From Candidatus Krumholzibacteriia bacterium (lineage in GTDB: Bacteria; Krumholzibacteriota; Krumholzibacteriia; JAJRXK01): 64,000 nt of DNA. This document shows, one piece after another, positions 29,334 through 58,206 of this stretch. Under the pieces are notes generated by a model. The model saw only the letters and a list, made by a program, of their open reading frames with translations, was not told the DNA's origin and made no database searches. The stretch's first letter is position 1. Each line of letters begins with the position of its first letter. Location: assembly GCA_035268685.1 (NCBI GenBank), contig DATFKK010000036.1, positions 5,510-69,509 on the forward strand, written 5' to 3'. A program made the translations under genes and the position numbers.

Positions 29334-29475
29334 GGCGGACCTCCTGGGGCTGCGCGGTAACGGTCGACAACATCGACCTTTCGCAGCAGAGGTACGCCAT
29401 CCGACCCGGATCAGGGGTCCGGGGAAATCCCGCCTCTGTCGTCATGGCCCCCCGGGGGGTGCGCGCGACGCCCGG

Positions 29476-39066: not shown

Positions 39067-39246
39067 TCGGCCGGGGACGGGAGAGTGCGACCCGCACATC
39101 ATAGCGGGAAGTGCGCGTTCGTCATATCCGACACGACTCGGACCGTGACCCCGCCGCCAACGAGAACACCCGGCCACCTCACGGCGACCGGGCGTCTCTT
39201 TCGGACTCGGCGGAACCGGGGCGACGGCCCGGACCGCGTCGTTCAC

Positions 39247-39699
39247 TCAGTCCTTCGCGTGGCAGTCGTTGCAACGCGTCGGCGCGGCGTAAGCCTCTTC
39301 GCCCGTGTCCATGTCCTTGTGGCAACCCACACAGCTGATGTGGTAGGCGTTCTTCTTGAGACTCATCGACGAGCAGTCGGGCACACCGTCCCCGGCGGGC
39401 TCGAAGTGGCACGACACGCAGGTCTCGACCTCGGTCTCGGCGACGTTCTCGAGCGTCAGGCCTTCGGTCGTGTGGTGGCAGGTGACGCAGTCGCTGACTT
39501 CGAAGTGGGCCGTGTGCGGGAACTCCACGAGCCCCTTCTTCTCGCCACAGCCGTCGAGGGTCATGACGTCCGGCAGACCGCCCTCTTCTTCTTCGGCAGC
39601 ATTGGCCGGCACGTAGGTCGCGCCCCAGACGAGGGCGAACACGGCGGCGACGGCGAGACATGCGAAAGCCGCGGTGCGGATACCTCTGGAATCGATCAT
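39247..39699 (-). CDS. Periplasmic tetraheme cytochrome c3 (class III).
   Basis: ATG 39699 with GGAGG 7 nt upstream. Signal MIDSRGIRTAAFACLAVAAVFALVWG. Four CXXCH motifs (CVTCHH, CVSCH, CVGCH, CNDCH) in about 120 mature residues plus a bis-His ligand motif FPHTAHF. Confidence 0.8.
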   Translation of the reverse strand: MIDSRGIRTAAFACLAVAAVFALVWGATYVPANAAEEEEGGLPDVMTLDGCGEKKGLVEFPHTAHFEVSDCVTCHHTTEGLTLENVAETEVETCVSCHFEPAGDGVPDCSSMSLKKNAYHISCVGCHKDMDTGEEAYAAPTRCNDCHAKD

Positions 39700-39916
39700 G
39701 GTTGGTTCCTCCGAGTTCGGAAAGAGGGTCGCGGGTGCGAGATGAAAACGGTGATCAAAATCTTCCCGACCAACGCCGCGATCCTCGTTGAGCCTACGCT
39801 CAGATCGTGAAATTCCTAGAGTGAGGCTGTACCGATTCGGTGATCCGCACGGAAGTGACACGGGAAGATTCCGACATAACGTCAGGATTCCGTGAAGTGC
39901 GCCCGGTCTCCGATCG

Positions 39917-41104
39917 TCACCGGAGTCGCGCCAGGATCGCGTCGGTGACCTGCTGGGTGGTCGCCGCGCCCCGTCCCACCACATCGGGGCCTCCCGGCAG
40001 ACGCATCATGTCGTAGGTGCGGACCCTGCCCTCGACCACGACGTCGCCGACGGCGCGGCGCACCGCCTCGGCCCGTCTGGTCTCGCCGACGTGGTCGAGC
40101 AGCATCGCCGCCGACAGGATCATGGCAATGGGATTCACGATGCTCGGCTCGAGCTCGGCGTACCGGGGCGCCGAACCGTGCGTGGGCTCGAACACCGCCA
40201 CGTCGTCGCCGATGTTCCCCGAACCCGCGAAGCCCAGCCCCCCCACCAGCCCGGCAAAGGCATCGCTGACGATGTCGCCGAAAAGGTTGCCGGCCACGAC
40301 CACCCCGTAGTCCTCGGGGTTCCGGGTCAGCCACATCATCTGCGCGTCGACGTTCGTACTCCGGAGCTCGATCTCGGGGAAGTCGGCGTGCACCTTCCCG
40401 GCTTCTTCCACCATCATGCCGCCGGTCTCGCGCAGCACGTTCGGCTTCTCGCACACGGTCACCGAGCGGTACCCGTGCTCACGCGCGTAGCCGAAGGCGG
40501 CGGTCAGGATCCGGCGCACGGCGCGGCGCGTGAACAGGCGAACGGAGACGGCCAGATCCTCTTCCGGTGTCTCGGCGAAGCGTCGCCAATTCGGATGCAG
40601 GGACAGGGCATCGCGCACCGCCTGCGGGGGATCGGTCCATTCGATGCCGGCGTACAGGCCCTCGGTGTTCTGACGGAAGATCACCACGTCGATCATGGGT
40701 TCGTCGATCGGCTCGGCACTCCCGCGGCGGACGAAGTTCAGTGGATTGCCGGCGAAGCTACGGCACGGGCGGATGCAGACGTCGAGGTCGAAGTGCTGCC
40801 GCAGGCCGACGATCGGACTGGAGTAGTCGAAGCCGTGGTCGCGCAGATCCGCGTCGAGATCCTCGGCGGCTTCCTTCTTCGGTTTGCTCGTGATCGCACC
40901 GAAGAGGCCGAGCCGGTGGCGTTCCAGGAGAGCGATCGTCGCGTCGGGCAGCGGATCGCCGGTGCGCCTCCAGCACTCCCAGCCGATGTCGGCGTGGAGG
41001 TAGTCGGCGTCGAAGCCCACTTTCTCGAGGACGCGGACCGCTTCGGGCAGGACGATGGCACCGATCCCGTCCCCGGGCATGGTGACGACGGTGTGCCTGG
41101 CCAT
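39917..41104 (-). CDS. Isocitrate/isopropylmalate dehydrogenase family protein (LeuB- or homoisocitrate-DH-like).
   Basis: Trimmed to MARHTVVTMPGDGIGAIV (41104, with GAGGAGG upstream). Family motifs include the Rossmann-like N-terminus GDGIG and the metal/substrate motif GNLFGDIVSDAFAGLVGGLG. Confidence 0.85.
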   Translation of the reverse strand: MARHTVVTMPGDGIGAIVLPEAVRVLEKVGFDADYLHADIGWECWRRTGDPLPDATIALLERHRLGLFGAITSKPKKEAAEDLDADLRDHGFDYSSPIVGLRQHFDLDVCIRPCRSFAGNPLNFVRRGSAEPIDEPMIDVVIFRQNTEGLYAGIEWTDPPQAVRDALSLHPNWRRFAETPEEDLAVSVRLFTRRAVRRILTAAFGYAREHGYRSVTVCEKPNVLRETGGMMVEEAGKVHADFPEIELRSTNVDAQMMWLTRNPEDYGVVVAGNLFGDIVSDAFAGLVGGLGFAGSGNIGDDVAVFEPTHGSAPRYAELEPSIVNPIAMILSAAMLLDHVGETRRAEAVRRAVGDVVVEGRVRTYDMMRLPGGPDVVGRGAATTQQVTDAILARLR

Positions 41105-41121
41105 GACCGCGAACCTCCTCG

Positions 41122-43074
41122 TCAGAACTTCAGTTCGCGCCGGATCATGGATTCGATTCCTCCCGCTGCCACCAGCGACTGGGGAAGCTCGCCCATCGGT
41201 GGGAAGGGATACTCGCGACCGTCGTAGCGGACGACGCCGGCCACGAAGTCGACGGTCACCGTCGCCGGGGCGACGACGGTGCGGAGGTCCTGTGCGGAGC
41301 GCACCGAGCGGATGGACTCGACGAACTCGGGGCACGTGATGCAGGGAAGGCCGTTGTTGTACGCGTTGCGCAGGAAGGTCTGCGCAAAGCTCCCAGCGAT
41401 GACCAACCGGATCCCGGCTGCGGTGAGTGCGGTGGCGGCCTGTTCGCGGCTGCTGCCGGTGCCGAAGCCGAATCCACCGACCAGGACGTCGCCCTCGCGA
41501 ACGATCGAGGCGAAGTCGGGGTCGTGGTTCTCCAGGACCACACGGGCCATCTCCCCGGCGCTCAGGTCACGGTAGGTGTGGTCCTTTCCGTACATGGCGT
41601 CGGTGTCGAGGTCGTCGGCGGGCACGACGATCGCACGACCCTCGATGCGCTCGGGAAAGCCCTCGAGGATCTCGACCGGTTCGACGAGCGCGGCGTCGGT
41701 CTCCACACCGCATTCGAACCGGGCCGTCGCCACCGGCCCCTCGGTCCGCACGCCCGACGGCGCGGTGATCTCGCCCTCGAGCGCCGAGGCCGCCACGACG
41801 GCGGGACCGGCCAGAAAGGCCCTCGCGTCGCGCGAACCCATGCGTCCTGGAAAATTGCGATTGGTCGCGCTGATCGCGACCTCGCCCGGCTCGAGCGATC
41901 CCTCGCCCAGACCGATGCACGGCCCACAACCCGGCGGCAACGCGTGGGCGCCCGCGTCGAGCAGCGTCTGCCAGGTCCCGTCGGCCTCGGCCGCCGCCTG
42001 CACGTCGGCACTCGCGGCCGCCACGTAGAACGACACCCCGTCGTGCACGTGACGCCCCCTCAGAACACGTGCCGCGGCCTGCAGGTCCTCGAGCCTCCCG
42101 TTCACGCAACCCAGCAGATAGGCCTTGTCGATCTTCGTGTGTCGCGCACCGACCTCGGCCACCGTGGCCAGGGCGCGGACGCTGTCGGGACCTGCGACCA
42201 CGGGCCGCAGGGTCGAGAGATCGAACTCGATGCGACCGGCGTAGACCGCATCGGGGTCGGCAGCCGGAGGGTCGGTGGACCAGTGCATCAGATCGGCCTC
42301 GCAGAAACGCTGTTCCCCACACGCGGCCAGGGCGTTGCGCACTCGACGCATGTGGTCGACGGTCACCTCGTCCACGGGGAAGATTCCCGCCAGCCCACCC
42401 CACTCGGTGGTCATGTTGGCGATGCTCAGCCGCGCGTCCATGCCGAGCGAGGCGACGCCGTCGCCGGTGAACTCGACGACCGCGTTCAGCACCTCACCGG
42501 CCGCGAACATGCCGCACAGGGCCAGGATCACGTCCTTGCCCGCCACTCCCGTGGCCAGTTCTCCACGAAGTTCCACCCGCAGGGTCCGCGGCACCTGCCA
42601 CCAGAACGTACCGGTGCTCCAGACCGCCGCGGCGTCGGTGCGGACGATCGGCGTGCCCAGAGCACCCAGTGCACCGTACGTGGTGGCGTGGGAATCGCTG
42701 GCCACACACAACGATCCCGGAACCACGTAGCCGCGCGACACCATGATCTGATGGCCGATGCCGGTGCCGGCGGGGTAGAAGTCCACGCCGTGGCCGCGCG
42801 CGAAGCCCTCGATCGAAGCGTACCTGCGCTGGTTGGCCTCGCTGCGGTTCTGGACGTCGTGGTCGAGCGCGAACACGGGCTGGGTCGGGTCGTGGATCCT
42901 GCCCACGCCGATCGCACGGAACTTCTCGATGACCGCGGCCGTGTTGTCGTGGGTGAGGACGTGCCGGGGACACAGACCGACGACGTCGCCGGCACGGATC
43001 CGGCGCCGCGGTCCGCGCGTCATGTGCGCCTGGACGATCTTCTCGGCCAGGGTCTGGCCGCCGACGGTGTTCAC
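41122..43074 (-). CDS. Aconitase-family dehydratase with fused large (LeuC-like) and small (LeuD-like) subunits.
   Basis: N-terminal roughly 420 aa carry the LeuC Fe-S ligand region (ASDSHATTYGALGALG, CGPCIG). The C-terminal roughly 190 aa are LeuD-like (swivel domain, GGFGFGTGSSREQAATAL). Start reassigned from the track TTG (43092) to GTG at 43074, overlapping the upstream gene's TGA (GTGA). Confidence 0.85.
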   Translation of the reverse strand: MNTVGGQTLAEKIVQAHMTRGPRRRIRAGDVVGLCPRHVLTHDNTAAVIEKFRAIGVGRIHDPTQPVFALDHDVQNRSEANQRRYASIEGFARGHGVDFYPAGTGIGHQIMVSRGYVVPGSLCVASDSHATTYGALGALGTPIVRTDAAAVWSTGTFWWQVPRTLRVELRGELATGVAGKDVILALCGMFAAGEVLNAVVEFTGDGVASLGMDARLSIANMTTEWGGLAGIFPVDEVTVDHMRRVRNALAACGEQRFCEADLMHWSTDPPAADPDAVYAGRIEFDLSTLRPVVAGPDSVRALATVAEVGARHTKIDKAYLLGCVNGRLEDLQAAARVLRGRHVHDGVSFYVAAASADVQAAAEADGTWQTLLDAGAHALPPGCGPCIGLGEGSLEPGEVAISATNRNFPGRMGSRDARAFLAGPAVVAASALEGEITAPSGVRTEGPVATARFECGVETDAALVEPVEILEGFPERIEGRAIVVPADDLDTDAMYGKDHTYRDLSAGEMARVVLENHDPDFASIVREGDVLVGGFGFGTGSSREQAATALTAAGIRLVIAGSFAQTFLRNAYNNGLPCITCPEFVESIRSVRSAQDLRTVVAPATVTVDFVAGVVRYDGREYPFPPMGELPQSLVAAGGIESMIRRELKF

Positions 43075-44450
43075 GACCGGTCCCTCTGACAAAGGGACAT
43101 GAAGTTCCGCGCCGAGCCGAAGTCGTCGAGCATCCAGACCGTCTCCTTCACTCGCTTCCGGGCGATCTCACTGAGGACGGGATCGGACAGGGCGTCGAAC
43201 TTGGCCTCGATCTCGTGATCGCTCAGGGGATTGCGAGGATCACCCTTCGGGTGGTCCAGCTTCTCGGAGAACTCGCGCCCGTCCTTGGTCCGGATCCTCA
43301 CGACCGCCTGCTGGAGCTCGGGGAACACGGCCTCGACGTCGGGATCGGGCATGACCTCCACCTTGCCCAGCTGCGCCCGCAACACCGGATCGGCGATCCT
43401 CTCGGGCGTGAACTGCGCCGGGGTGACGTTCCGGTCCACGAGGACGGCTGCGATCACGTAGGGCAACGAGTGGTCGGCCGTCTCCTTGCTCTGCGGATCG
43501 TACTTGCTGGGATCGGCGAGGATGTCCGCGGCGCGCGCCGTCGTTCGGACCAGAACGCTCTCGATCTCGTCGGGTGCGAGATCGTTGTCGCGGACGATGT
43601 CGAGCGTGGCCGAGATCGGCGCGTGGGTGAGCGCCTCGGTCGGAAAGGCCTTCATGCCACATCGTTCGATCCGCCAGGTCTCGCCCAGTCCGTCGGTCAG
43701 CACGTCGAGATCCCACTCCGGTCCCAGGCAGTGCACCAACCCCTCCTTGCCGTCGATCACGTGCCGCGGGCCGGTGTACCCCCGCTCGGCCAGCAGCGCG
43801 GCCGTCATTCCCGACTGGGTGGCCATCGGGTCGACCGAATTCTTCGTCATGGTCAGTTCGCCCGCCGTGACCGCTCCGAAGGTCGCGTTGTGCGACGCCG
43901 CGATGCCGATGGCGTGCTGGATGCGCTCGGTGTCGAGTCCCAGCAACCGGCCCGCTACGATCGGGGAGACGACGGCCGTCAGGGTGGCGTGGTGCCAACC
44001 GCGTTCCCTGATCCCGGGAAAGGCGGCCTCGGCCAGCCGCATCTCGAACTCGTGACCCAGCACCACTCCCAGCAGCAGATCGCGTGCATCGAGGTCCTGA
44101 CGTTCGCAGGCGGCCATGGCGGCCGGGATCACGTCGCTCGGATGCACCGGATCCTGCCGCCAGTAGATGTCGTTGTAGTCCATGGAACGGATCATCAACG
44201 CGTTCGCGAGTGTGGCCGACACGGGATCGGCCTTCTCGCCACTGGCCAGGACGGTGCACTCACCGGTGCCCGCGCACTCGGCGAGCACATCCAATGCGAT
44301 CCCGCAGTCCTCCTGCAGGAATCCACCGAACGCGCACCCCACCGAATCCAGGAGGAAGCGCTTGGCCTGGTGCAGGACCTCGGGTGGAATGTCGTCGAAG
44401 CGCAGGCCGGCAGCCCACCGGGCCATGGTCGCGGTGACGGTGTCGGACAT
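43071..44450 (-). CDS. MmgE/PrpD family protein (2-methylcitrate dehydratase-like).
   Basis: Trimmed to MSDTVTATMARWAAGLRFDDIPPEVLHQAKRFLLDSVGCAFGG, the typical PrpD N-terminus, with GGAAGG upstream. 459 aa. Confidence 0.85.
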   Translation of the reverse strand: MSDTVTATMARWAAGLRFDDIPPEVLHQAKRFLLDSVGCAFGGFLQEDCGIALDVLAECAGTGECTVLASGEKADPVSATLANALMIRSMDYNDIYWRQDPVHPSDVIPAAMAACERQDLDARDLLLGVVLGHEFEMRLAEAAFPGIRERGWHHATLTAVVSPIVAGRLLGLDTERIQHAIGIAASHNATFGAVTAGELTMTKNSVDPMATQSGMTAALLAERGYTGPRHVIDGKEGLVHCLGPEWDLDVLTDGLGETWRIERCGMKAFPTEALTHAPISATLDIVRDNDLAPDEIESVLVRTTARAADILADPSKYDPQSKETADHSLPYVIAAVLVDRNVTPAQFTPERIADPVLRAQLGKVEVMPDPDVEAVFPELQQAVVRIRTKDGREFSEKLDHPKGDPRNPLSDHEIEAKFDALSDPVLSEIARKRVKETVWMLDDFGSARNFMSLCQRDRS

Positions 44451-44730
44451 TGCGAACCCTTCCGTCCGGAACGCGGCCGGACGTACGCAGAGGAGCCGGA
44501 CACGGAGGCGATCGCCACGACGCCCCCGGTCCGTCGGATTCGGAGATGAGACCCAGCGTGGCACCGCCACCACCACGGTCGACAGCGTGGAACTGTGAGA
44601 ACCGCGCAGGCCGTCGGGCCGAAAATGTGAGCTCGCGCGTCGCCGTGATGCACGTGCACCGGGCAGGCAGAGCGGAGGGACGATCCGACCGGGTCCCTCC
44701 GCCCCGGGGGGCACACGTACGGGGAGTACG

Positions 44731-45921
44731 CTAGAACGCAGCCGTGAAGCCGACGACCGCGCGTGTCTCCTCGATCTCGAGGTCGTAGGTCAGCTCGGCG
44801 ATCATCCGCAGATTCCGGGCGTGCAGATGCGACCACGACGCGGTCACCGTCTCGTAGTCGGTGGCGTCGTCGTCGGAGTCGATCCAGTTGTACAAGAGGA
44901 CGACGGCATCCATGCCGTCGGGACCGGCCGGCATGATCGTCAGTTCGCCGATCACGCCGTCGGTCTCGATCTCCGATCCCGAGCCCGTGGCGTCGCTGTC
45001 GGTTCGATGCAGGTATTGCACGCTCGCCGAGACCTTGTCGAAGCCCACGTGCACGTCGGGACCGAAGACTTCGACATCGTTCTCGAAGCCGGTACCGCTC
45101 GCGCTCAGGGCCTCGGTCGTGGCGTAGTAGGTTCCGGCCGCGGTGACCGGACCCGCCGCGTAGACCAGGCGCCCGAGGTAGCCCTTGTCTGGGTCACGAT
45201 CGAAGAAGTCGTCTCCTCCGTCTTCCGCGGCGGCCAGGCCGTTGCCGTTGACCACCTCACCCACGAGGGACAGACCGATCGGCGTGTCGTAGGTGACCAG
45301 CACTCCACGATCGTAGGTGAGCCGTGCGACCGATCCTCCGGGTTGCGCCTTGTAGATCTCGTAGTCCTCGAAGGTCAGGCGCAGCTCGCGCTTCATCATG
45401 GGGTCGGAGATCTGGAACTGACCGACCATCACGTCGAGAGGTTGCCCCCCGAGATCGTTGAAGTGCAGGTAGGCGTCTTCCACCCCGGCGACCTCGCCCT
45501 CCTCGGCCATGTAGAAGTAGACGTAGTAGCCCACGTCGTCCATCACACTGCCACCACTCAGGAGCTTGATACCCCACGGAACCTGCAGATCGGGGACGTT
45601 CTCGTCGTCCTCCCGTGTCTCGTAGACGCCGTAGGCGTCCAGACGCACGGCCAGGGGCAGGTCGCGTTGGAGCAACAACTCCGGGTCGCCCGTGTCCTGG
45701 TAGGCTCGACGTGGTTCCTCGCCGTCGGGAAGACGGAAGCCGTTGCCGGCGAACTCGTCACCGTAGTCCTTCAGACGCGGAGCCGGCGCGTGGCACGTCG
45801 TACACGAGAGATTGTACTTGCGGGCGAAGGCGGGTATCGCGTTCGCCTCGGACACGAAGGTACTCACGAGCACCAGTGCCGCGATCATCGGGAACACAAG
45901 GTTCTTCGTCGTCTTCATCAC
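44731..45921 (-). CDS. Cyc2-like fused monoheme cytochrome c - outer-membrane beta-barrel porin.
   Basis: Signal (LVFPMIAALVLVSTFVSEANA), then a single heme motif CTTCH at about residue 42 in the context PAFARKYNLSCTTCH. The roughly 350-aa remainder has alternating amphipathic beta-strands and a C-terminal aromatic residue (VGFTAAF), the defining architecture of Cyc2 iron oxidases. Its start overlaps the upstream cytochrome gene's stop. Confidence 0.65.
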   Translation of the reverse strand: MMKTTKNLVFPMIAALVLVSTFVSEANAIPAFARKYNLSCTTCHAPAPRLKDYGDEFAGNGFRLPDGEEPRRAYQDTGDPELLLQRDLPLAVRLDAYGVYETREDDENVPDLQVPWGIKLLSGGSVMDDVGYYVYFYMAEEGEVAGVEDAYLHFNDLGGQPLDVMVGQFQISDPMMKRELRLTFEDYEIYKAQPGGSVARLTYDRGVLVTYDTPIGLSLVGEVVNGNGLAAAEDGGDDFFDRDPDKGYLGRLVYAAGPVTAAGTYYATTEALSASGTGFENDVEVFGPDVHVGFDKVSASVQYLHRTDSDATGSGSEIETDGVIGELTIMPAGPDGMDAVVLLYNWIDSDDDATDYETVTASWSHLHARNLRMIAELTYDLEIEETRAVVGFTAAF

Positions 45922-47333
45922 CAGTTCACCACCTCGACGGAAGTATCGGCTTCGCCGACGACGACGGCCTCGGTCTCCTCTGCGGGGACGTCGAGGAAGT
46001 CACCGACGGACTTCACGAGTTTGCGATAGCGGAGCACGGCCTCGAACCGCAGCTCCCCGTAGGGCACGTCCTGCGGGACCGTGAACAGATAGGTTTCGGT
46101 CTTGGTCTCTCGGGGCGCGATCCGGTAGTCGGTCCCCAGGCTCGCCGTGTTCCACTGCATGATGGTGCGGCGACCCTGCTCGTCGAAGTAGGGCAGGCAG
46201 AAGATCCGGTCGCCTTCGTAGGCCGTGGAGTCCCGGGGCAGGCCGGCGAAGTCCGGATCGTCCAGAGGTTCGCCCATGTCCTGGTAGGCCAGCTCGTTGC
46301 TGGTGATGGTCTGCTCCTCGCCCTCGAAGCCCTTCTTCTCGACCGGGAGGTGATACCGATTGCCATCGGCGTCGACGGCGTGGACGGTCACCCACAGCTG
46401 TCGCTCCTCGGCCGAGCCCGAAGGCACCTTGTGCCCGGCCTTGCCGTTGAACAGCGCCAGCTTCAGGGTCACCGGATCGCCGGGAAGACACTCAGGATGC
46501 TCGGTCCACATGACCATCTCGACCACACCGGCGAGCTTGCTCTGGTGATGGGCACCGTGGAAGAGGTGGTTCCGCCGATCGTCGACCACCTCGGCCCCCA
46601 TGATCGCGAGGCGCCCGTGCCCCGGCGGCATGTGGCAGTCGTGACAGGTGATCCCCATGTCCGGGTACGGACCCTCGGCGTACTCGAGCTGTGTGCTCTT
46701 CACCCAGACGTCGTAGGGACTCTTCTCGTTGTGGCAGGTCCCGCAGAACTCCGCACTCTGGATGAACTCGCTCTTGGCGGTGAGGTGGTGCGGCGACTCC
46801 ATGCCCTCGCGCCCGCCCCACTTCGTGCGACCGGGCTTCACGAGGTAGTTGTAGTTGTGGGGAACCTCTCCGGCGAAACCCACGACCTGATGGCACATGT
46901 CACAGTTCACGGCCTCGTCGGCCATGCTCCCCTCACCGGGCCGCGGCGGCGGGGTGTCGCCCGCGAGGAACGAGACGGGCGCGTGGCAGCCGTTGCAGCC
47001 GTGCTTCACCTCGGCCACCTTCTCCTTCCGCTCGGCGTGGGGTACGGCGAGCCGGAAGTATTCGATCTCGTCCCAGTGGTGCGTGTAGGCCTGGCTCATG
47101 AGCGAGCGGCGCCACTGCCCGGCGATGTCCAGATGACAGCCGGTGCACTGCTGGGCAGGTTGGAAGTCGTCGTAGGAGAACTGACCGTGGGCGTCGTCCC
47201 CGGAGGGGATCGCCCGGAGTTCCTCCTCGGGCAGGACCCCCGTCACGGGCTGGGCGAGAACCGGACAGGTCAGGAGCAGAACGAGGAATCCCGCTACGCA
47301 CGAGGCGAAGCGGGAGATCGCGGGGATGGGCAT
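45918..47333 (-). CDS. Periplasmic pentaheme c-type cytochrome.
   Basis: Trimmed to MPIPAISRFASCVAGFLVLLLTCPVLAQP (47333, with GGAGG upstream). Five CXXCH motifs: CTGCH, CNGCH, CDMCH, CGTCH, CHDCH. Confidence 0.8.
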   Translation of the reverse strand: MPIPAISRFASCVAGFLVLLLTCPVLAQPVTGVLPEEELRAIPSGDDAHGQFSYDDFQPAQQCTGCHLDIAGQWRRSLMSQAYTHHWDEIEYFRLAVPHAERKEKVAEVKHGCNGCHAPVSFLAGDTPPPRPGEGSMADEAVNCDMCHQVVGFAGEVPHNYNYLVKPGRTKWGGREGMESPHHLTAKSEFIQSAEFCGTCHNEKSPYDVWVKSTQLEYAEGPYPDMGITCHDCHMPPGHGRLAIMGAEVVDDRRNHLFHGAHHQSKLAGVVEMVMWTEHPECLPGDPVTLKLALFNGKAGHKVPSGSAEERQLWVTVHAVDADGNRYHLPVEKKGFEGEEQTITSNELAYQDMGEPLDDPDFAGLPRDSTAYEGDRIFCLPYFDEQGRRTIMQWNTASLGTDYRIAPRETKTETYLFTVPQDVPYGELRFEAVLRYRKLVKSVGDFLDVPAEETEAVVVGEADTSVEVVNW

Positions 47334-47509
47334 GAGTCCTCCGATATGTCGAGCACCCACCGGAATGGGCGCCGGATCGCGCGACGCGGAAGCCTGGTCG
47401 AGGACAGGTGGCTCCCGGCGTCACGCTCTCGATTCACTGCGCGAGGCATTCCATCTATACCAGCCTCGGCCGATCGAACCCATGATGCATGTGGATCAGA
47501 TCGGTGGGA

Positions 47510-47998
47510 TCACTCGCTCTCGCCGAGACGATGATCACGTAGATGCTCGAGCTCCTCGGGGCCGAAGTACGCCGCACTGAACTCCGAGATCAGCTCGTCG
47601 AGCTTCTCGGTGTGCGCCGTTTCCGTGGTCTGCTTCGACTTCATGGCGTGCACGAGCATCTCGTGAAGCAGTGTGAGCTGCTTCACGTAGTCCGAGTCGT
47701 CGGCACCGGCCGGCTTGATCCGCTGGTGCAGGAAGTACTGGCTGACGATGTGCTGGAACTCGACGGCGTGCTGTTCCTTGTTGGTGATCCAGCGCACGAT
47801 CTGATTGTAGTTCTTGTCGCCCTCGGCGGTCAGGGCGTCGATCTGGTTCATGGCTTTCTCGATCGTGGTCACGTGCTCGCGCAGCATCTCGATGCGCATG
47901 GCGTCGCCGTAGATCCCGCACGGGATCTCGCAGTGGGCGCGCACGGTGGCGGGAGCGAGAAGGACGAGCAACAGGGCGGCGCTCAGGGCACGGCGCAT
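47510..47998 (-). CDS. sodN: Nickel superoxide dismutase with a Sec-type signal peptide (periplasmic).
   Basis: MRRALSAALLLVLLAPATVRA | HCEIPCGIYGDA. The Ni-hook motif H-C-x-x-P-C-G-x-Y directly follows a predicted AxA signal-peptidase site, so His1 becomes the N-terminus. The rest is a four-helix-bundle-length (about 140 aa) sequence. Confidence 0.85.
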   Translation of the reverse strand: MRRALSAALLLVLLAPATVRAHCEIPCGIYGDAMRIEMLREHVTTIEKAMNQIDALTAEGDKNYNQIVRWITNKEQHAVEFQHIVSQYFLHQRIKPAGADDSDYVKQLTLLHEMLVHAMKSKQTTETAHTEKLDELISEFSAAYFGPEELEHLRDHRLGESE

Positions 47999-48132
47999 GG
48001 GAGTACCTCTCGTGGGGGGACGGGTTCTCGTTGCGTGCCATGCAGTCTAGGCCGAGGCGCGAGGGGACGCCACGCGCACCACGCCGTGGCCCCCTCCTTC
48101 CCCGGGACGCCGTCTGGGGGTCCTCCGGCTCG

Positions 48133-48687
48133 TCAGTTCGGCGGGTTGCCGAAGGGCTCGAAGCTCATGAAGTCGGCGTGGTGGACGATACAGGCTTCGG
48201 TAGAACGACCCACCATGTCCCCTTCGCCGGCATGCGTGGCGATCACGTGGCAGACCGCGTCCGGGATCCCGCACTCCATGGCCAGCGACACACCGGTGAA
48301 GGGGTGCCTCAGGGCTTTGCCACGATCGCTCTGCACCGCGATTCCGTCGATCCGATCGTACTCCAGGAGCTTTCCGACGTCGGCGAGGATCGCCCCCGCC
48401 ACGACGGTGTCGAGGTCGATCCGCAGCGCGCGCCCCAGGAAGTCCTGCATCGATTCGGCGCTGCGTCGAGCGATGTGCACCACGCACCGTTTGTGTTCCA
48501 TGAACGTCGCCGTGCAGTTCTGCACGCGCAGCGTGAAGGGGATCTGCCGGAGGTCGTCGGGGGTCAGGGGACTGCGTTCGAAGGCGAGTTCCCAGGTACG
48601 GGCGACGCGTTCGCGCAGATCCTCGTTCTCGATCCAGCCCAGCTCCGGCCAGAGATCCTCGAGATCGGCCCGGGTGACGGCGGTCAT
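48133..48687 (-). CDS. HD-domain (HDIG-type) metal-dependent phosphohydrolase.
   Basis: Trimmed to MTAVTRADLEDLW (48687). H...HD motif region VCHVIATHAGEGD and IVHHADFMS. Confidence 0.7.
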   Translation of the reverse strand: MTAVTRADLEDLWPELGWIENEDLRERVARTWELAFERSPLTPDDLRQIPFTLRVQNCTATFMEHKRCVVHIARRSAESMQDFLGRALRIDLDTVVAGAILADVGKLLEYDRIDGIAVQSDRGKALRHPFTGVSLAMECGIPDAVCHVIATHAGEGDMVGRSTEACIVHHADFMSFEPFGNPPN

Positions 48688-48983
48688 CGCGTGTCTCCAT
48701 CGCGGCGGGAAAGCATCCGGAATCCACTGCGAGAGCAAAGCATAGCGGACGCGCCGACGACACGCCGGAATCGTGAGATCACCGTTCCACTCCGGACCGG
48801 AAAGGGGAGCGTCTCGGGGAATCCCCCACCCCACCCACGAGTGCGTCCCAGGGCTCCCGCCACCGTCCACCGGGACGTCATCGCGACCGGCCGGACGCAA
48901 ACTGTGGAACGTTCCGCGGCCGGACCCCGGCCATGATCCACGTGAATCCGCCCGGTGACCCGGACGCGTGCCAGGAGGCCTCG

Positions 48984-49754
48984 ATGATCCGCACCATGCT
49001 CGAACTCACGGACTTCGAACTCCGAGCTGCCGACGGCCCCCTGGGCCCGCTGCAGGACCTGTACTTCGAAGATGTGGAGTGGGTCGTTCGTTACCTCACC
49101 GCCGACGTCTCGGCATGGTTGCCCGGACTGACCGTCCTGCTGGCTCCTTCTGCACTCGACTCCGTCGACCGTGAACACCGCACCATGCGGACCCGCTTCG
49201 ATCGGCGGCAGATGCAGAACAGCCCGACGGCGATCGAGGACGACGCGGTCTCGAAGCGCAACATGGAACACGTGGGGGATCCCACCTGGCAGCCCTTCTG
49301 GTTGACGACCTCGAGCCAGCTCGGTGCCACCGCGCCGATCACCCCGCTGCGGTCCGGGGTCTCCGGGGAGAAGACCGGCGAGACCGGGAGCGGCGCCGAC
49401 CTGCGGAGCGCGCAGGAACTGCTGGGGTACGCCGTCGAATGCGAAGGACAGCGGGTCGGAAGAGTGTCGGATCTCGCCTACGACGACGAGACCTGGAAGA
49501 TCCAGTACCTCGTGGTGGACACCGTGGCCCCGGCCGAGGAACGCCGGATCCTGATTGCCCCGGACTGGACGGAAGCGATCGACTGGGTCGAGCCGGTGGT
49601 CCGCCTGGACCTCGACTGCGAAGCAGTGGGCCGGGCACCGGGCTTCGAGGCCTCCACCCGCGTCGACGAGGCGTACCGCCGTCGGCTGCTCGAACACTAC
49701 GGACGCACCGCGTCCCGACTCCACGAAACCCGACCCGCGGAGGGATCGCCATGA
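48984..49754 (+). CDS. PRC-barrel domain protein (two PRC-like beta-barrel repeats).
   Basis: Start taken at MIRTMLELTDFELRAADGPLGPLQDLYFED. The same pattern recurs as LLGYAVECEGQRVGRVSDLAYDDETWKIQYLVVD. Confidence 0.55.
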   Translation: MIRTMLELTDFELRAADGPLGPLQDLYFEDVEWVVRYLTADVSAWLPGLTVLLAPSALDSVDREHRTMRTRFDRRQMQNSPTAIEDDAVSKRNMEHVGDPTWQPFWLTTSSQLGATAPITPLRSGVSGEKTGETGSGADLRSAQELLGYAVECEGQRVGRVSDLAYDDETWKIQYLVVDTVAPAEERRILIAPDWTEAIDWVEPVVRLDLDCEAVGRAPGFEASTRVDEAYRRRLLEHYGRTASRLHETRPAEGSP

Positions 49755-51653: not shown

Positions 51654-52997
51654 ATGGACGCGACACGGCTGCAGAAGTTCTTGTCCGACTCCGCGCGGAC
51701 GGCCACGCGCAACGAGATCCGCGAACTCCTCAAGCTGATCGCCAAACCCGACATGATCAGCCTCGCCGGCGGGTTGCCCGCCCCGGCGAGTTTTCCCGTG
51801 CCGGAGCTGAAGGAGGTCACCCAGCGTGTCCTCGACGAGTTCGGTCCGGCGGCCCTGCAGTACGGGCCCACGGAGGGCGACGTCGGACTCCGCGAAGAGC
51901 TCATCGGTCTGATGGAGGCCGACGGCTGCGAGAACGTCGCGCTCGAGAACGTGCTGGTGACCACGGCCAGCCAGCAGGCGCTCGACCTGTGTTCACGTGT
52001 GTTCATCGCGCCGGGAGACACGGTCGTGTGCGGATTGCCCAGTTACCTGGGCGCACTCGGTGCCTTCGTCGCCTGCGGCGCGCGCCTCAGCGGTGTCCCT
52101 CTCGACGACGAGGGGATGCGCACCGACCTGCTCGAGCACCGTCTCCTCACACTTCGGCGTGAGGGCGTGCATCCGAAGTTCCTGTACCTGGTGCCGGACT
52201 TCCAGAACCCGGCGGGGGTCACGCTGAGCGTCGAACGACGCCACGAGGTCCTTTCCATCGCCCGCGAGTTCGACCTGCTCATCGTCGAGGACAATCCGTA
52301 CCGGCAGTTGCGCTACATCGGCGAAACGCCCCCGGCCCTCGGGGCACTCGACCGCGACGGGCGTGTGATCACGCTCTACAGCTTCTCCAAGGTCTTCTGC
52401 CCCGGACTGCGCCTGGGATACGTGCTGGCCCACCCCGAGGTGATCCAACGCCTGGTCATGGCCAAACAACCGGTGGACCTGTGCACGAGCAGCTTCAATC
52501 AGATCATCGCCCGCGAGTACGTGAAGGGCGGGCACCTGTGGCCGCGTCTGGAACGCACACGCGAACTCTACGCCCGCAAGCGCGAGATCATGCTGACCGC
52601 GCTGTCCGAGCACGTCGATCCCGACTGGGGCGTCCGCTGGACCAACCCCGAGGGTGGCATGTTCCTGTGGATGACGCTTCCCAAGCACCTCGACGCGCGA
52701 GATCTGTTCCGCCTCGCGCTCGAGCGCAACGTGGCCTTCGTGATCGGCAACGCTTTCTACTGCGACAGCGGCGGCCACAACACGCTACGGCTGAACTTCT
52801 CGTACCCGAGCGAGGACCAGCTCGTGATCGCGGTCAAGCGACTGAGCGACGCCATCGACCAGTTGATCACCGACAACCCGGCCCCGAAGGCCGACACCGC
52901 CGAGGTGCGTGGATTCAGCGAAGGTCTGACCACCGGCAGCGATCACGCCCTCACGCATCTTCCACTGAATCTCGCGCTGCACGAAGTGCTCGAGTAG
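51654..52997 (+). CDS. PLP-dependent aminotransferase, class I/II fold (2-aminoadipate / aromatic aminotransferase-like, MocR-type catalytic domain without HTH).
   Basis: LAGGLPAPASFP, YLVPDFQNPAGVTLS and catalytic-Lys region YSFSKVFCPGLRLGYV. Confidence 0.85.
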   Translation: MDATRLQKFLSDSARTATRNEIRELLKLIAKPDMISLAGGLPAPASFPVPELKEVTQRVLDEFGPAALQYGPTEGDVGLREELIGLMEADGCENVALENVLVTTASQQALDLCSRVFIAPGDTVVCGLPSYLGALGAFVACGARLSGVPLDDEGMRTDLLEHRLLTLRREGVHPKFLYLVPDFQNPAGVTLSVERRHEVLSIAREFDLLIVEDNPYRQLRYIGETPPALGALDRDGRVITLYSFSKVFCPGLRLGYVLAHPEVIQRLVMAKQPVDLCTSSFNQIIAREYVKGGHLWPRLERTRELYARKREIMLTALSEHVDPDWGVRWTNPEGGMFLWMTLPKHLDARDLFRLALERNVAFVIGNAFYCDSGGHNTLRLNFSYPSEDQLVIAVKRLSDAIDQLITDNPAPKADTAEVRGFSEGLTTGSDHALTHLPLNLALHEVLE

Positions 52998-57745: not shown

Positions 57746-57884
57746 GGCGAAGCCTCCGTTCGGGGCCCCGCGCCACAGCGCGGAGCGTGGAGTCCGGCTG
57801 CACCTCCAGTGTAGCACCGCCGCGGGGCCTTCCCGCTCTGATCAACCTGCACCAACCCCGTGCCGCGGCTTGCCCGCCGCCGGC

Positions 57885-58075
57885 GGAGCCGTTATGGTCC
57901 TGCCACTCGAAACCGACGCCCGGCGGGTCCAACCGGGAAGCTGGTGCGATTCCAGCGCGGCCCCGCCACTGTGACCGGCGACGGCCTCCGCACACGCCAC
58001 TGGAACACGGGTTCTGGGAAGGCGCGGAGAGCCGGCTCGAGCCGGAAGCCAGGAGACCGACCCCGGGCGTTTCCA
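57885..58075 (+). ncRNA. Cobalamin (adenosylcobalamin) riboswitch in the 5' leader of the TonB-dependent receptor.
   Basis: Core GGGAAGCTGGTGCGATTCCAGCGCGGCCCCGCCACTGTGACCGG, containing the conserved GGTGxGAxTCC element and the B12 box GCCACTG (57965-57971). About 130 nt before the receptor ATG. Confidence 0.6.
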
Positions 58076-58206
58076 CCTGGTCCTTCGGGGGAAGGAAGGG
58101 TGGGTTTCGCGCACGCGGAGGTGGGCACTCCCACCGGCCGTCACCCCTGCTGCGCGCGACCGACCGTACCGACCTACCGGGACGCAACCTCCGGCGGTGA
58201 TGGGCC

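What the first reader, a model, noticed from the sequence alone, without database searches (positions are those of the whole stretch)
39917..44450. PrpD-like / fused LeuCD / LeuB-like operon without an adjacent synthase: a non-canonical 2-oxoacid or (methyl)citrate-type pathway?
Three tightly linked minus-strand genes (GTGA overlap between the first two, 15-nt gap to the third) encode an MmgE/PrpD dehydratase-family protein, an aconitase-family dehydratase with large and small subunits fused in one polypeptide, and an isocitrate/isopropylmalate dehydrogenase-family enzyme. Canonical leucine or AAA-lysine chain elongation uses only LeuCD-type isomerase plus dehydrogenase after a synthase, and canonical methylcitrate cycles use PrpD plus aconitase plus lyase. 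Combining PrpD with LeuCD and a LeuB-like oxidative decarboxylase suggests a hybrid route. A PLP aminotransferase of the LysN/aromatic type lies 7 kb away.
Basis: inference. Interest (0 to 1): 0.5.

Follow-up and report, generated by a model that had tools for sequence, protein, structure and literature searches.

The report
PrpD-homoaconitase-dehydrogenase trio of a conserved module
Three linked genes in an uncultured Krumholzibacteria genome are not leucine genes: they are part of a conserved, undescribed six-gene module found in several soil and sediment phyla, which probably interconverts homocitrate and 2-oxoadipate and is normally paired with a citrate-lyase-like enzyme instead of a synthase.

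Summary
Three co-directional minus-strand genes encode an MmgE/PrpD-family protein (43071-44450), a fused aconitase-family protein (41122-43074) and an Iso_dh protein (39917-41104). They join by a GTGA overlap and a 17-nt gap.

They are not LeuCD/LeuB. The fused protein passes NCBI's fungal-type homoaconitase model. The dehydrogenase has the substrate loop of S. pombe homoisocitrate dehydrogenase but an NADP-type cofactor motif. The PrpD-like protein is nearer to cis-aconitate decarboxylase and IDS epimerase than to true PrpD.

The linkage is strongly conserved. In 80 loci from Gemmatimonadota, Acidobacteriota, Rhodothermales and Latescibacterota, the order is HD-domain protein, PrpD-like, homoaconitase, dehydrogenase, fused CitD-CitE, CitF. 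No LeuA/homocitrate-synthase homologue was detected. This window's lineage keeps the trio under purifying selection, with the HD gene 3.7 kb upstream and no CitDE/CitF within 64 kb.

Best reading (inferred): homocitrate <-> cis-homoaconitate <-> homoisocitrate <-> 2-oxoadipate. The PrpD-like enzyme supplies the half-reaction that Lys4-type homoaconitases cannot do. The lyase suggests a catabolic direction, from 2-oxoadipate to 2-oxoglutarate plus acetate. I found no published description.

The parts
43071..44450 (-). MmgE/PrpD-family protein (459 aa). Proposed role: Fe-S-independent homocitrate/cis-homoaconitate (de)hydratase, the 'citrate-mode' half-reaction.
   Evidence: Pfam MmgE_PrpD_N and _C. 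Scores far below all PrpD equivalog cut-offs (85 vs 950, 77 vs 575, 54 vs 458). PDB best matches are IDS epimerase and cis-aconitate decarboxylase (E 1e-32 and 1e-31), against PrpD at 1e-13. The equivalents of CAD residues D93, H103, H159, K207 and K272 are kept; T97 is Ile and H277 is Glu. It sits directly upstream of the homoaconitase in 59 of 71 assessable loci. dN/dS is 0.13 against L090.
41122..43074 (-). Fused large+small aconitase-family protein (650 aa) of the Lys4 (fungal) homoaconitase type. Proposed reaction: cis-homoaconitate <-> homoisocitrate.
   Evidence: TIGR00139 h_aconitase 675 bits, above the 529.9 cut-off. LeuC (196 vs 560), AcnA, AcnB and Aquifex-type aconitase models are all far below their cut-offs. 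Three invariant Cys (C323, C383, C386) are available for the Fe-S cluster. The small-domain loop NTD[AG]IYGKDYTYR[DE] is conserved in 79 orthologues. NCBI names orthologues 'homoaconitase'. dN/dS is 0.26.
39917..41104 (-). Iso_dh-family beta-decarboxylating dehydrogenase (395 aa). Proposed function: NADP-type homoisocitrate dehydrogenase / 2-oxoadipate reductive carboxylase.
   Evidence: Pfam Iso_dh. Best NCBIfam hits are the homoisocitrate-dehydrogenase models AksF2 and AksF, but below their cut-offs; LeuB scores 157 against 353. The substrate loop DYSSPIVGLRQ matches S. pombe HICDH 3ty3 GYSSPIVALRK. Ile replaces IDH Asn115, and Val replaces Thermus HICDH Arg85. The cofactor motif is HGSAPRYAE here and HGSAPKYAEL in most of the 71 orthologues, where NAD-dependent homologues have HGSAPDIA. 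It follows the homoaconitase in 71 of 73 loci.
48133..48687 (-). HD-domain protein (184 aa), the sixth conserved member of the module. Here it is separated from the trio by three inserted genes. Its role is unknown.
   Evidence: It is 69-72% identical to the ~180-aa protein found directly upstream of the PrpD-like gene in 49 loci. Pfam HD E 2.5e-8. AF2 model pLDDT 87; Foldseek finds only generic HD phosphohydrolases. The canonical 'HD' doublet reads 'AD' (LADVGK, invariant). dN/dS is 0.12.
51654..52997 (+). LysN/KAT-II-family PLP aminotransferase (447 aa). A possible but unproven 2-aminoadipate/2-oxoadipate link.
   Evidence: PDB matches: 1wst, 1x0m and 3aov at E 1e-110; T. thermophilus 2-aminoadipate transaminase 2egy at 1e-90; human KAT/AadAT at 1e-49. 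It is conserved next to the locus in the close relative L090. Among 89 loci, a 37%-identical relative lies near the module only in L076.
44451..44730 (-). 280-nt intergenic region upstream of the PrpD-like gene (presumed promoter region).
   Evidence: No Rfam match at E<=1. No sigma-70-like or terminator-like site on the relevant strand.

Best explanation
The trio encodes the reversible segment homocitrate <-> cis-homoaconitate <-> homoisocitrate <-> 2-oxoadipate + CO2. The Lys4-type Fe-S homoaconitase does only the homoaconitate/homoisocitrate half. The PrpD-family protein supplies the homocitrate/homoaconitate half, a tertiary-alcohol ('citrate-mode') dehydration. Fungi and Thermus use TCA aconitase for that step, and true PrpD does the analogous step for 2-methylcitrate. 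The Iso_dh protein links homoisocitrate to 2-oxoadipate using NADP(H). The trio is a fragment of a conserved six-gene module: HD protein, PrpD-like, homoaconitase, dehydrogenase, fused CitD(ACP)-CitE, CitF. The C-C-bond enzyme of that module is a citrate-lyase-like complex, not a homocitrate synthase. I therefore think the module most likely runs 'backwards' as a catabolic shunt: 2-oxoadipate + CO2 + NADPH -> homoisocitrate -> homocitrate -> acetate + 2-oxoglutarate. Shown here: the gene families, the conserved synteny, the specificity motifs and purifying selection. Inferred: the substrates, the role of the PrpD-like protein and the direction.
For: Family assignment: TIGR00139 homoaconitase is passed (675 vs 529.9), while the LeuC, LeuD, LeuB, Acn and IDH equivalogs fail.
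Substrate motif: the dehydrogenase loop YSSPIVxLR is identical to that of S. pombe homoisocitrate dehydrogenase and lacks the IDH Asn115.
Missing half-reaction: fungal and Thermus homoaconitases catalyse only homoaconitate <-> homoisocitrate, and a second enzyme is needed for homocitrate -> homoaconitate (PMC3556520). That paper itself draws the parallel to methylcitrate dehydratase.
Synteny: the PrpD-like gene is adjacent in 59 of 71 loci and within the locus in 9 more. IsoDH is adjacent in 71 of 73, CitDE follows in 61 of 65 and CitF in 56 of 60, across Gemmatimonadota, Acidobacteriota, Rhodothermales and Latescibacterota, and in other Krumholzibacteria.
No synthase: no LeuA/HCS-like gene was detected in 89 loci or in the window.
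Polycarboxylate pocket: the PrpD-like protein keeps five residues of the CAD pocket.
Direction: the NADP-type K/R-Y motif replaces the Asp of NAD-dependent HICDH/IPMDH. Both known ACP-dependent lyases of this type, citrate lyase and citramalate lyase, are catabolic (my own knowledge).
Selection: the trio is under purifying selection in the lyase-less lineage, dN/dS 0.13-0.26.
Against: There is no biochemical evidence for any step. The PrpD-like protein is closer to a decarboxylase and an epimerase than to a proven dehydratase. The dehydrogenase misses every curated homoisocitrate-dehydrogenase cut-off. CitE and CitF score closest to genuine citrate lyase, and CitF only just below its cut-off (476.5 vs 501). 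Reductive carboxylation is thermodynamically uphill. No transporter, regulator or lysine-catabolic gene is conserved beside the module. This window's lineage lacks CitDE/CitF within 64 kb, so the trio may work with another partner here. No CitC/CitX/CitG-like activating gene showed up among the conserved neighbours.
Confidence: 0.4

Rival explanations
1. Same chemistry, biosynthetic direction. The trio makes 2-oxoadipate from homocitrate, for alpha-aminoadipate/lysine or for further 2-oxoacid elongation. Homocitrate would come from a synthase encoded elsewhere, or from the CitDE/CitF complex working as an ATP-independent, acetate-dependent condensing enzyme.
For: The homoaconitase and the dehydrogenase loop are of the type used in fungal lysine biosynthesis. 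A LysN-family aminotransferase lies 7 kb away here and next to the module in L076. The absence of a conserved transporter or regulator, and the 56-87% identity across phyla, look like housekeeping genes. The LysW-type alpha-aminoadipate (AAA) lysine pathway exists in at least one FCB-group bacterium, Caldithrix (PMC5317091).
Against: No HCS/LeuA homologue was detected in 89 loci. No lysine riboswitch was found. The NADP-type cofactor motif is unlike that of known biosynthetic NAD-dependent HICDHs. Condensing free acetate with 2-oxoglutarate is unfavourable at physiological concentrations (my own knowledge). At least one acidobacterium has riboswitch-controlled DAP-pathway genes (PMC5584792).
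Confidence: 0.2
2. The substrates are citrate and isocitrate. The module would be an alternative aconitase/isocitrate-dehydrogenase set coupled to a true citrate lyase, for example reductive carboxylation of 2-oxoglutarate followed by citrate cleavage to acetate plus oxaloacetate.
For: CitF (476.5 vs 501) and CitE score best on the citrate-lyase models. The dehydrogenase has an EcIDH-like clasp insert and an NADP motif. In L075 the module is flanked by histidine-to-glutamate catabolic genes: a Pfam-confirmed FTCD, plus ORFs that I read by eye as urocanase and histidase from their N-terminal sequences. Thermus HICDH is known to accept isocitrate (my own knowledge).
Against: The dehydrogenase lacks the Asn115 equivalent of IDH and the Arg85 that lets Thermus HICDH use isocitrate. 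The hydratase passes the homoaconitase model and fails all aconitase models.
Confidence: 0.1
3. The module acts on a different, unidentified tricarboxylate or carboxyalkyl-malate, and the PrpD-like protein is an epimerase, isomerase or decarboxylase rather than a (de)hydratase.
For: Its closest solved relatives are IDS epimerase and cis-aconitate decarboxylase. Two of the CAD catalytic residues differ. The HD-domain partner has no role in the homocitrate scheme. The HD and PrpD-like genes travel together as a pair when separated from the rest (L001, L042, L052, L057).
Against: The specificity signatures of the two flanking enzymes both point to the homoisocitrate skeleton. A dehydratase is precisely what is missing for Lys4-type enzymes.
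Confidence: 0.2
4. Ordinary leucine biosynthesis (leuCD, leuB) with an unrelated PrpD neighbour.
For: The Pfam families are the same as for LeuC, LeuD and LeuB. Whether the genome holds other leuBCD copies could not be checked.
Against: LeuC 196 vs 560, LeuD 82 vs 246 and LeuB 157 vs 353 bits. The dehydrogenase lacks the IPMDH Leu-Leu pocket motif (my own knowledge, compared). Synteny with the PrpD-like gene and a citrate-lyase-like complex is conserved in about 90% of loci. No leuA was detected nearby.
Confidence: 0.02

Closest known systems
Upper alpha-aminoadipate pathway of fungi (Lys20/21 homocitrate synthase, aconitase Aco2/AcoA, Lys4 homoaconitase, Lys12 homoisocitrate dehydrogenase)
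   Same: A fused Lys4-type homoaconitase (passes TIGR00139). The dehydrogenase substrate loop is identical to S. pombe HICDH. A second enzyme is needed for homocitrate -> homoaconitate.
   Different: The second enzyme is a PrpD-family protein, not an aconitase. The dehydrogenase has an NADP-type motif and an IDH-like insert. No homocitrate synthase is nearby; relatives carry a CitD-CitE/CitF lyase and an HD protein instead. The hosts are bacteria, most of which probably use the DAP route for lysine.
2-Methylcitrate cycle (PrpC, PrpD, AcnB/AcnA, PrpB)
   Same: The same division of labour: a PrpD-family, Fe-S-independent enzyme dehydrates the tertiary alcohol, and an aconitase-family enzyme rehydrates in 'isocitrate mode'.
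   Different: The PrpD-like protein fails all PrpD equivalog models and is nearer to CAD and IDS epimerase. There is no PrpC or PrpB nearby. An oxidative decarboxylase follows, not a methylisocitrate lyase.
Citrate lyase (CitD, CitE, CitF) and citramalate lyase complexes
   Same: In relatives, the module has an ACP domain with a conserved Ser, a CitE-type lyase and a CitF-type acyl-ACP:carboxylate transferase.
   Different: CitD is fused to CitE. Both CitE and CitF score below the curated cut-offs. No CitC/CitX/CitG is adjacent. The complex is embedded with homoaconitase-type genes. It is absent from this 64-kb window.
Methanogen 2-oxoacid elongation (AksA, AksD/E, AksF)
   Same: The best NCBIfam hits of the dehydrogenase are AksF2 and AksF. 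The overall chemistry is 2-oxoacid + C2 <-> next homologue.
   Different: The Aks homoaconitase is split into two subunits and does both half-reactions. AksA is a LeuA-type synthase. There is no PrpD or lyase.
Reductive TCA citrate-cleavage arm (IDH in reverse, aconitase, ATP-citrate lyase or CCS/CCL)
   Same: The proposed logic is the same: reductive carboxylation of a 2-oxoacid, isomerisation, then lyase cleavage to a C2 unit plus a shorter 2-oxoacid.
   Different: The proposed substrate is one carbon longer. The lyase is ATP-independent and ACP-dependent. Isomerisation is split between two unrelated enzymes.

Membership tests
Isopropylmalate isomerase LeuC/LeuD | Scores above the curated LeuC (TIGR00170) and LeuD (TIGR02084, PRK01641) cut-offs | tested here: not met
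   196 vs 560; 82 vs 246; 67 vs 167 bits
Lys4-type (fungal) homoaconitase, TIGR00139 | Whole-protein score above the curated equivalog cut-off | tested here: met
   675.2 bits vs 529.9; NCBI names orthologues 'homoaconitase'
Lys4-type (fungal) homoaconitase, TIGR00139 | Large and small domains fused in one chain, with three Cys ligands for the 4Fe-4S cluster | tested here: met
   Aconitase (11-434) plus Aconitase_C (530-580) in one 650-aa chain; C323, C383 and C386 invariant in 16 sequences
Lys4-type (fungal) homoaconitase, TIGR00139 | Catalyses cis-homoaconitate <-> homoisocitrate only | not testable with these tools
   Property of the characterised fungal and Thermus enzymes (PMC3556520); needs an enzyme assay
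Homoisocitrate dehydrogenase | Substrate-recognition loop as in a structurally characterised HICDH | tested here: met
   DYSSPIVGLRQ here vs S. pombe 3ty3 GYSSPIVALRK; SPIV is conserved in the 71 orthologues
Homoisocitrate dehydrogenase | Curated HMM cut-offs (AksF2, AksF, iso_homocit_dh) | tested here: not met
   262 vs 540; 258 vs 500; 141 vs 680 bits
Homoisocitrate dehydrogenase | NAD-type Asp after the HGSAP motif | tested here: not met
   HGSAPRYAE here and HGSAPKYAEL in orthologues, vs HGSAPDIA in Thermus HICDH and 6lky
Isocitrate dehydrogenase | Ser113-x-Asn115 contacts to the isocitrate gamma-carboxylate (E. coli numbering) | tested here: not met
   The aligned motif is S-P-I; Asn is replaced by Ile
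3-Isopropylmalate dehydrogenase LeuB | TIGR00169 cut-off | tested here: not met
   157 vs 353 bits
2-Methylcitrate dehydratase PrpD | MmgE/PrpD fold (both Pfam domains) | tested here: met
   PF03972 at 235 bits and PF19305 at 160 bits
2-Methylcitrate dehydratase PrpD | Equivalog HMM cut-offs, and linkage to prpC/prpB | tested here: not met
   85 vs 950; 77 vs 575; 54 vs 458 bits. No citrate-synthase-like or methylisocitrate-lyase family appears among the conserved neighbours
Cis-aconitate decarboxylase (CAD/Irg1) | The full set of catalytic-pocket residues (human D93, T97, H103, H159, K207, K272, H277; Y318 not examined) | tested here: not met
   Five of seven kept; T97 is Ile and H277 is Glu
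Citrate lyase CitDEF (module partner in relatives) | The genes are present, and they score above the curated cut-offs | tested here: not met
   Absent from the window. In L005, CitE scores 267 vs 443, CitD 55 vs 63.5 and CitF 476.5 vs 501
Alpha-aminoadipate lysine biosynthesis cluster | Homocitrate synthase and LysW/X/Y/Z/J/K (or Lys2/Lys9/Lys1) linked or present in the genome | tested here: inconclusive
   No LeuA/HCS-like hit in the window or in 89 loci. None of the window genes I scanned with Pfam is LysW/X-like. The rest of the genome could not be searched

The most novel reading that the evidence does not exclude
A widespread, undescribed 'reverse alpha-aminoadipate' shunt in Acidobacteriota, Gemmatimonadota, Krumholzibacteriota, Latescibacterota and Rhodothermales. 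In it, 2-oxoadipate is reductively carboxylated by an NADP-type homoisocitrate dehydrogenase. The product is isomerised by a Lys4-type homoaconitase plus the first PrpD-family homocitrate hydratase. It is then split by the first ACP-dependent homocitrate lyase into acetate and 2-oxoglutarate. This would be a carbon-conserving route for lysine and 2-aminoadipate catabolism, with a dedicated HD-domain accessory protein.
Probability: 0.3. Interest if true: 0.8.

Novelty: new variant of a known kind. Interest (0 to 1): 0.62.

Why it matters
If the reading is right, it assigns a function to a large, highly conserved clade of 'MmgE/PrpD family' proteins: a homocitrate/homoaconitate (de)hydratase. 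That would show a second, non-aconitase solution to the half-reaction that homoaconitases cannot perform.

It would also predict a third member of the ACP-dependent lyase family, a homocitrate lyase. It would define a new link between 2-oxoadipate and 2-oxoglutarate in abundant but poorly understood soil and sediment phyla.

It also corrects automatic annotation. 'Homoaconitase' in these genomes need not mean lysine biosynthesis, and '2-methylcitrate dehydratase' here is probably wrong. All the predictions can be tested directly with five recombinant proteins.

Tried and rejected
- HD protein: an AlphaFold2 model (pLDDT 87) followed by a Foldseek search of the PDB gave only generic HD phosphohydrolases (YhaM, PgpH, Ddi2), so no role could be assigned.
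- Rfam: scans of the whole window, the region 44300-49000, and six related loci found no riboswitch near the module, and in particular no lysine riboswitch.
- Promoter and terminator scan of 39200-45000: nothing useful.
- tblastn of the homoaconitase against plasmids: only distant (35-37% identity) split LeuCD-type genes, so no annotated cultured example was found.
- Literature searches for 'homocitrate lyase', 'homocitrate dehydratase', homoaconitase+PrpD, homoaconitase+citrate lyase, homoaconitase+Acidobacteria and homoisocitrate+reductive carboxylation found no description of this module.
- Aminotransferase association: a relative lies near the module in only one locus (L076) of the 89 searched, apart from this window's own lineage, so I do not count it as part of the module.
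- Conserved neighbours beyond the six genes (Ig-domain protein, SAM hydroxide adenosyltransferase, GalT, PNP, MnmG and others) are lineage-specific and unrelated.
- Leucine-biosynthesis reading: rejected on HMM cut-offs and synteny.


Full report
**1. The observation**

The region holds three co-directional minus-strand genes.
- A 459-aa MmgE/PrpD-family protein at 43071-44450.
- A 650-aa protein with the aconitase large and small domains in one chain at 41122-43074. Its GTG start overlaps the upstream stop as GTGA.
- A 395-aa Iso_dh protein at 39917-41104, 17 nt downstream and behind a GAGGAGG ribosome-binding site.

The Pfam hits are unambiguous. The window is about 68% G+C and comes from a Candidatus Krumholzibacteria MAG, on the evidence of 100% identical proteins. 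The flanking genes are unrelated to this chemistry: a c3-type cytochrome and an RND efflux system downstream, and a 396-aa unknown protein, a multihaem cytochrome and a Ni-superoxide dismutase upstream.

**2. What the three proteins are**

*The fused protein.* On the NCBIfam curated models it passes the fungal-type homoaconitase equivalog TIGR00139 (675 bits, cut-off 529.9). It fails every LeuC, LeuD, AcnA, AcnB and Aquifex-type aconitase model. It keeps three invariant Cys for the Fe-S cluster.

*The dehydrogenase.* It scores best on homoisocitrate-dehydrogenase models but below their cut-offs, and it fails LeuB and the IDH models.
- In alignments to solved structures, its substrate loop DYSSPIVGLRQ is the loop of S. 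pombe homoisocitrate dehydrogenase (GYSSPIVALRK).
- It has Ile where E. coli IDH has Asn115, and Val where Thermus HICDH has Arg85.
- After HGSAP it reads R-Y, and K-Y in most of the 71 orthologues. NAD-dependent HICDH and NAD-IDH read D-I at this position.
- From established knowledge, K344/Y345 is the NADP signature of E. coli IDH.
- It also carries an IDH-like insert after YAGIEW.

So it is a mosaic: an HICDH-type substrate site with an NADP-type cofactor site.

*The PrpD-like protein.* It is far below all three PrpD equivalog cut-offs. It is closer to IDS epimerase and cis-aconitate decarboxylase (E 1e-32 and 1e-31) than to 2-methylcitrate dehydratase (1e-13). It keeps five of the seven CAD pocket residues that I examined.

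**3. Conservation of the linkage**

The best 80 loci came from Acidobacteriota (59), Gemmatimonadota (16, counting Ca. Benthicola), Rhodothermales (2), Latescibacterota (1) and unclassified bacteria (2).

I ran tblastn with the window proteins, and with proteins from a Gemmatimonadota chromosome first seen. It shows one fixed, co-directional order: PrpD-like, homoaconitase, Iso_dh, fused CitD(ACP)-CitE, CitF. Counting only loci with enough flanking sequence:

| Gene | Position | Loci |
|---|---|---|
| PrpD-like | directly upstream of the homoaconitase | 59 of 71 |
| PrpD-like | elsewhere in the locus | 9 of 71 |
| PrpD-like | absent | 3 of 71 |
| Iso_dh | adjacent downstream | 71 of 73 |
| CitD-CitE | within 3 kb downstream | 61 of 65 |
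| CitF | within 5.5 kb downstream | 56 of 60 |

De novo clustering of all neighbouring ORFs found one further conserved gene. It is a ~180-aa HD-domain protein directly upstream of the PrpD-like gene in 49 loci. Nothing else is shared widely: no transporter and no regulator.

**4. How this window differs**

Other Krumholzibacteria carry the complete six-gene module (L087 and L088). The window's own lineage is a derived, fragmented version, seen in L002-L004, in L090 (85-91% identity) and in L089 (70%).
- The HD gene is present at 48133-48687, 69-72% identical to the module's HD. Three inserted genes separate it from the trio.
- No CitDE or CitF lies within the 64 kb.
- The trio is nevertheless intact and under purifying selection: dN/dS is 0.13, 0.26 and 0.23 against L090.

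Trio-only or decayed versions also occur sporadically in Acidobacteriota. In L035 the lyase genes are absent. In L070 the genes are frameshifted or truncated. In L083 the homoaconitase and dehydrogenase read as one ORF. The 'solitary' PrpD-like gene of Gemmatimonadota CP070812.1 is followed by a 33-aa remnant of the homoaconitase, so that case is a secondary loss.

**5. Mechanism**

Fazius et al. (PMC3556520) showed that fungal homoaconitases, like the Thermus enzyme, catalyse only homoaconitate <-> homoisocitrate. A second enzyme, TCA aconitase in those organisms, is needed for homocitrate -> homoaconitate. They note the parallel with the methylcitrate cycle, where PrpD performs the dehydration that aconitase cannot.

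Here a PrpD-family gene is translationally coupled to a Lys4-type homoaconitase and followed by an HICDH-like dehydrogenase. The simplest reading is homocitrate <-> cis-homoaconitate (PrpD-like) <-> homoisocitrate (homoaconitase) <-> 2-oxoadipate + CO2 (dehydrogenase). This is inference from family membership, specificity motifs and synteny. No step has been shown biochemically.

**6. Direction**

The conserved C-C enzyme is a citrate-lyase-like complex, whose components score below the curated citrate-lyase cut-offs:
- an ACP domain with a conserved Ser in a DVRSD motif;
- a CitE domain at 267 bits against a cut-off of 443;
- a CitF at 476.5 bits against 501.

Several points favour a catabolic route, 2-oxoadipate + CO2 + NADPH -> homoisocitrate -> homocitrate -> acetate + 2-oxoglutarate:
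- Both known ACP-dependent lyases of this kind, citrate lyase and citramalate lyase, are catabolic (my own knowledge).
- The dehydrogenase is of the NADP type.
- No synthase is ever linked.

Several points remain compatible with biosynthesis of 2-oxoadipate:
- The sequences are highly conserved across phyla.
- No transporter or regulator is conserved beside the module.
- A LysN-family aminotransferase is nearby here and in L076.
- LysW-type alpha-aminoadipate (AAA) lysine-pathway genes exist in another FCB bacterium.

At least one acidobacterium has riboswitch-controlled DAP genes, which argues mildly against a lysine-biosynthetic role in that phylum. I rate the chemistry at about 0.6. Given that chemistry, I rate the catabolic direction at about 0.55-0.65.

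**7. Rivals**

- Leucine biosynthesis is excluded for practical purposes.
- A citrate/isocitrate-level pathway is disfavoured by the missing Asn115 and Arg85 equivalents and by the homoaconitase model. The lyase's similarity to citrate lyase keeps it alive.
- The PrpD-like protein might instead be an epimerase, isomerase or decarboxylase acting on an unknown tricarboxylate. This cannot be excluded, because its nearest solved relatives are not dehydratases, the HD partner has no place in my scheme, and HD and PrpD-like travel as a pair when detached.

**8. Novelty and limits**

Full-text searches found no paper describing a homocitrate lyase, a PrpD-family homocitrate dehydratase or this gene cluster. 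Public annotation calls the proteins 'homoaconitase', '2-methylcitrate dehydratase' or 'MmgE/PrpD family protein', and 'HD domain-containing protein'. I class the finding as a new variant of a known kind: 2-oxoacid chain elongation or shortening chemistry built with two non-orthologous enzymes.

The limits are these:
- All carriers seen are MAGs.
- The rest of this genome could not be searched for CitDE/CitF, HCS or leuBCD.
- The residue numbering for E. coli IDH, Thermus HICDH and human CAD comes from my own knowledge, mapped onto the alignments printed.

Noticed in passing
window 57878-58079 (+): A cobalamin riboswitch (Rfam RF00174, 91.8 bits) lies directly upstream of a TonB-dependent receptor at 58201-60258. 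This is probably a BtuB-type B12 uptake gene.
   Followed up: no
window 44731-47998 (-): Three genes are inserted between the module's HD gene and the PrpD-like gene: Ni-superoxide dismutase (47510-47998), a multihaem cytochrome c (45918-47360) and a 396-aa protein with no Pfam match (44731-45921). The same three genes recur in the relatives L089 and L090.
   Followed up: partly
window 48133-48687 and alignment A2: In the conserved HD-domain protein, the canonical 'HD' metal-binding doublet reads 'AD' (LADVGK, invariant in 24 sequences). Several other His and Asp residues are invariant. This suggests an altered metal site or a non-hydrolytic role.
   Followed up: partly
L005 13171-21565; L009; L010 (Gemmatimonadota): In three Gemmatimonadota loci, an ADP-forming acyl-CoA synthetase-like protein (743 aa), a thiolase and a 696-aa ECH-like protein follow CitF. 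In L017, L007 and L075 the module instead adjoins three ORFs that I read by eye, from N-terminal sequences only, as an archaeal-type thiolase / HMG-CoA-synthase-like / DUF35 trio (not confirmed by Pfam). This is a recurrent acetyl-CoA-related neighbourhood.
   Followed up: partly
L083 9995-13243; L070 8876-13242: In L083 the homoaconitase and the dehydrogenase read as one 1082-aa ORF, which is either a real fusion or an assembly error. In L070 the PrpD-like gene is truncated and the dehydrogenase is split in two. Both loci lack CitDE/CitF.
   Followed up: no
L001 11494-11592: A 33-aa remnant of the homoaconitase N-terminus (61% identity) follows the 'solitary' HD/PrpD-like pair of Gemmatimonadota CP070812.1. 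The rest of the module was probably lost there.
   Followed up: partly
L075 1742-4995 and 16154-17974: In one Gemmatimonadaceae MAG the module has no PrpD-like gene (HD is directly followed by the homoaconitase) and is flanked by histidine-catabolism genes. The formiminotransferase-cyclodeaminase was confirmed by Pfam. The urocanase- and histidase-like ORFs were judged from N-terminal sequence only.
   Followed up: partly
window 27063-29441 (-): A Cdc48/VCP-like double-AAA ATPase with CDC48_N and CDC48_2 domains, which is unusual in a bacterium.
   Followed up: no
window 10079-11530 (-): An FAD-linked oxidase (FAD_binding_4 plus FAD-oxidase_C), the family of D-lactate and D-2-hydroxyglutarate dehydrogenases. 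It is not linked to the module.
   Followed up: no
L088 14552-15904: A Band_7 (stomatin-like) gene is inserted between CitD-CitE and CitF in one relative.
   Followed up: no
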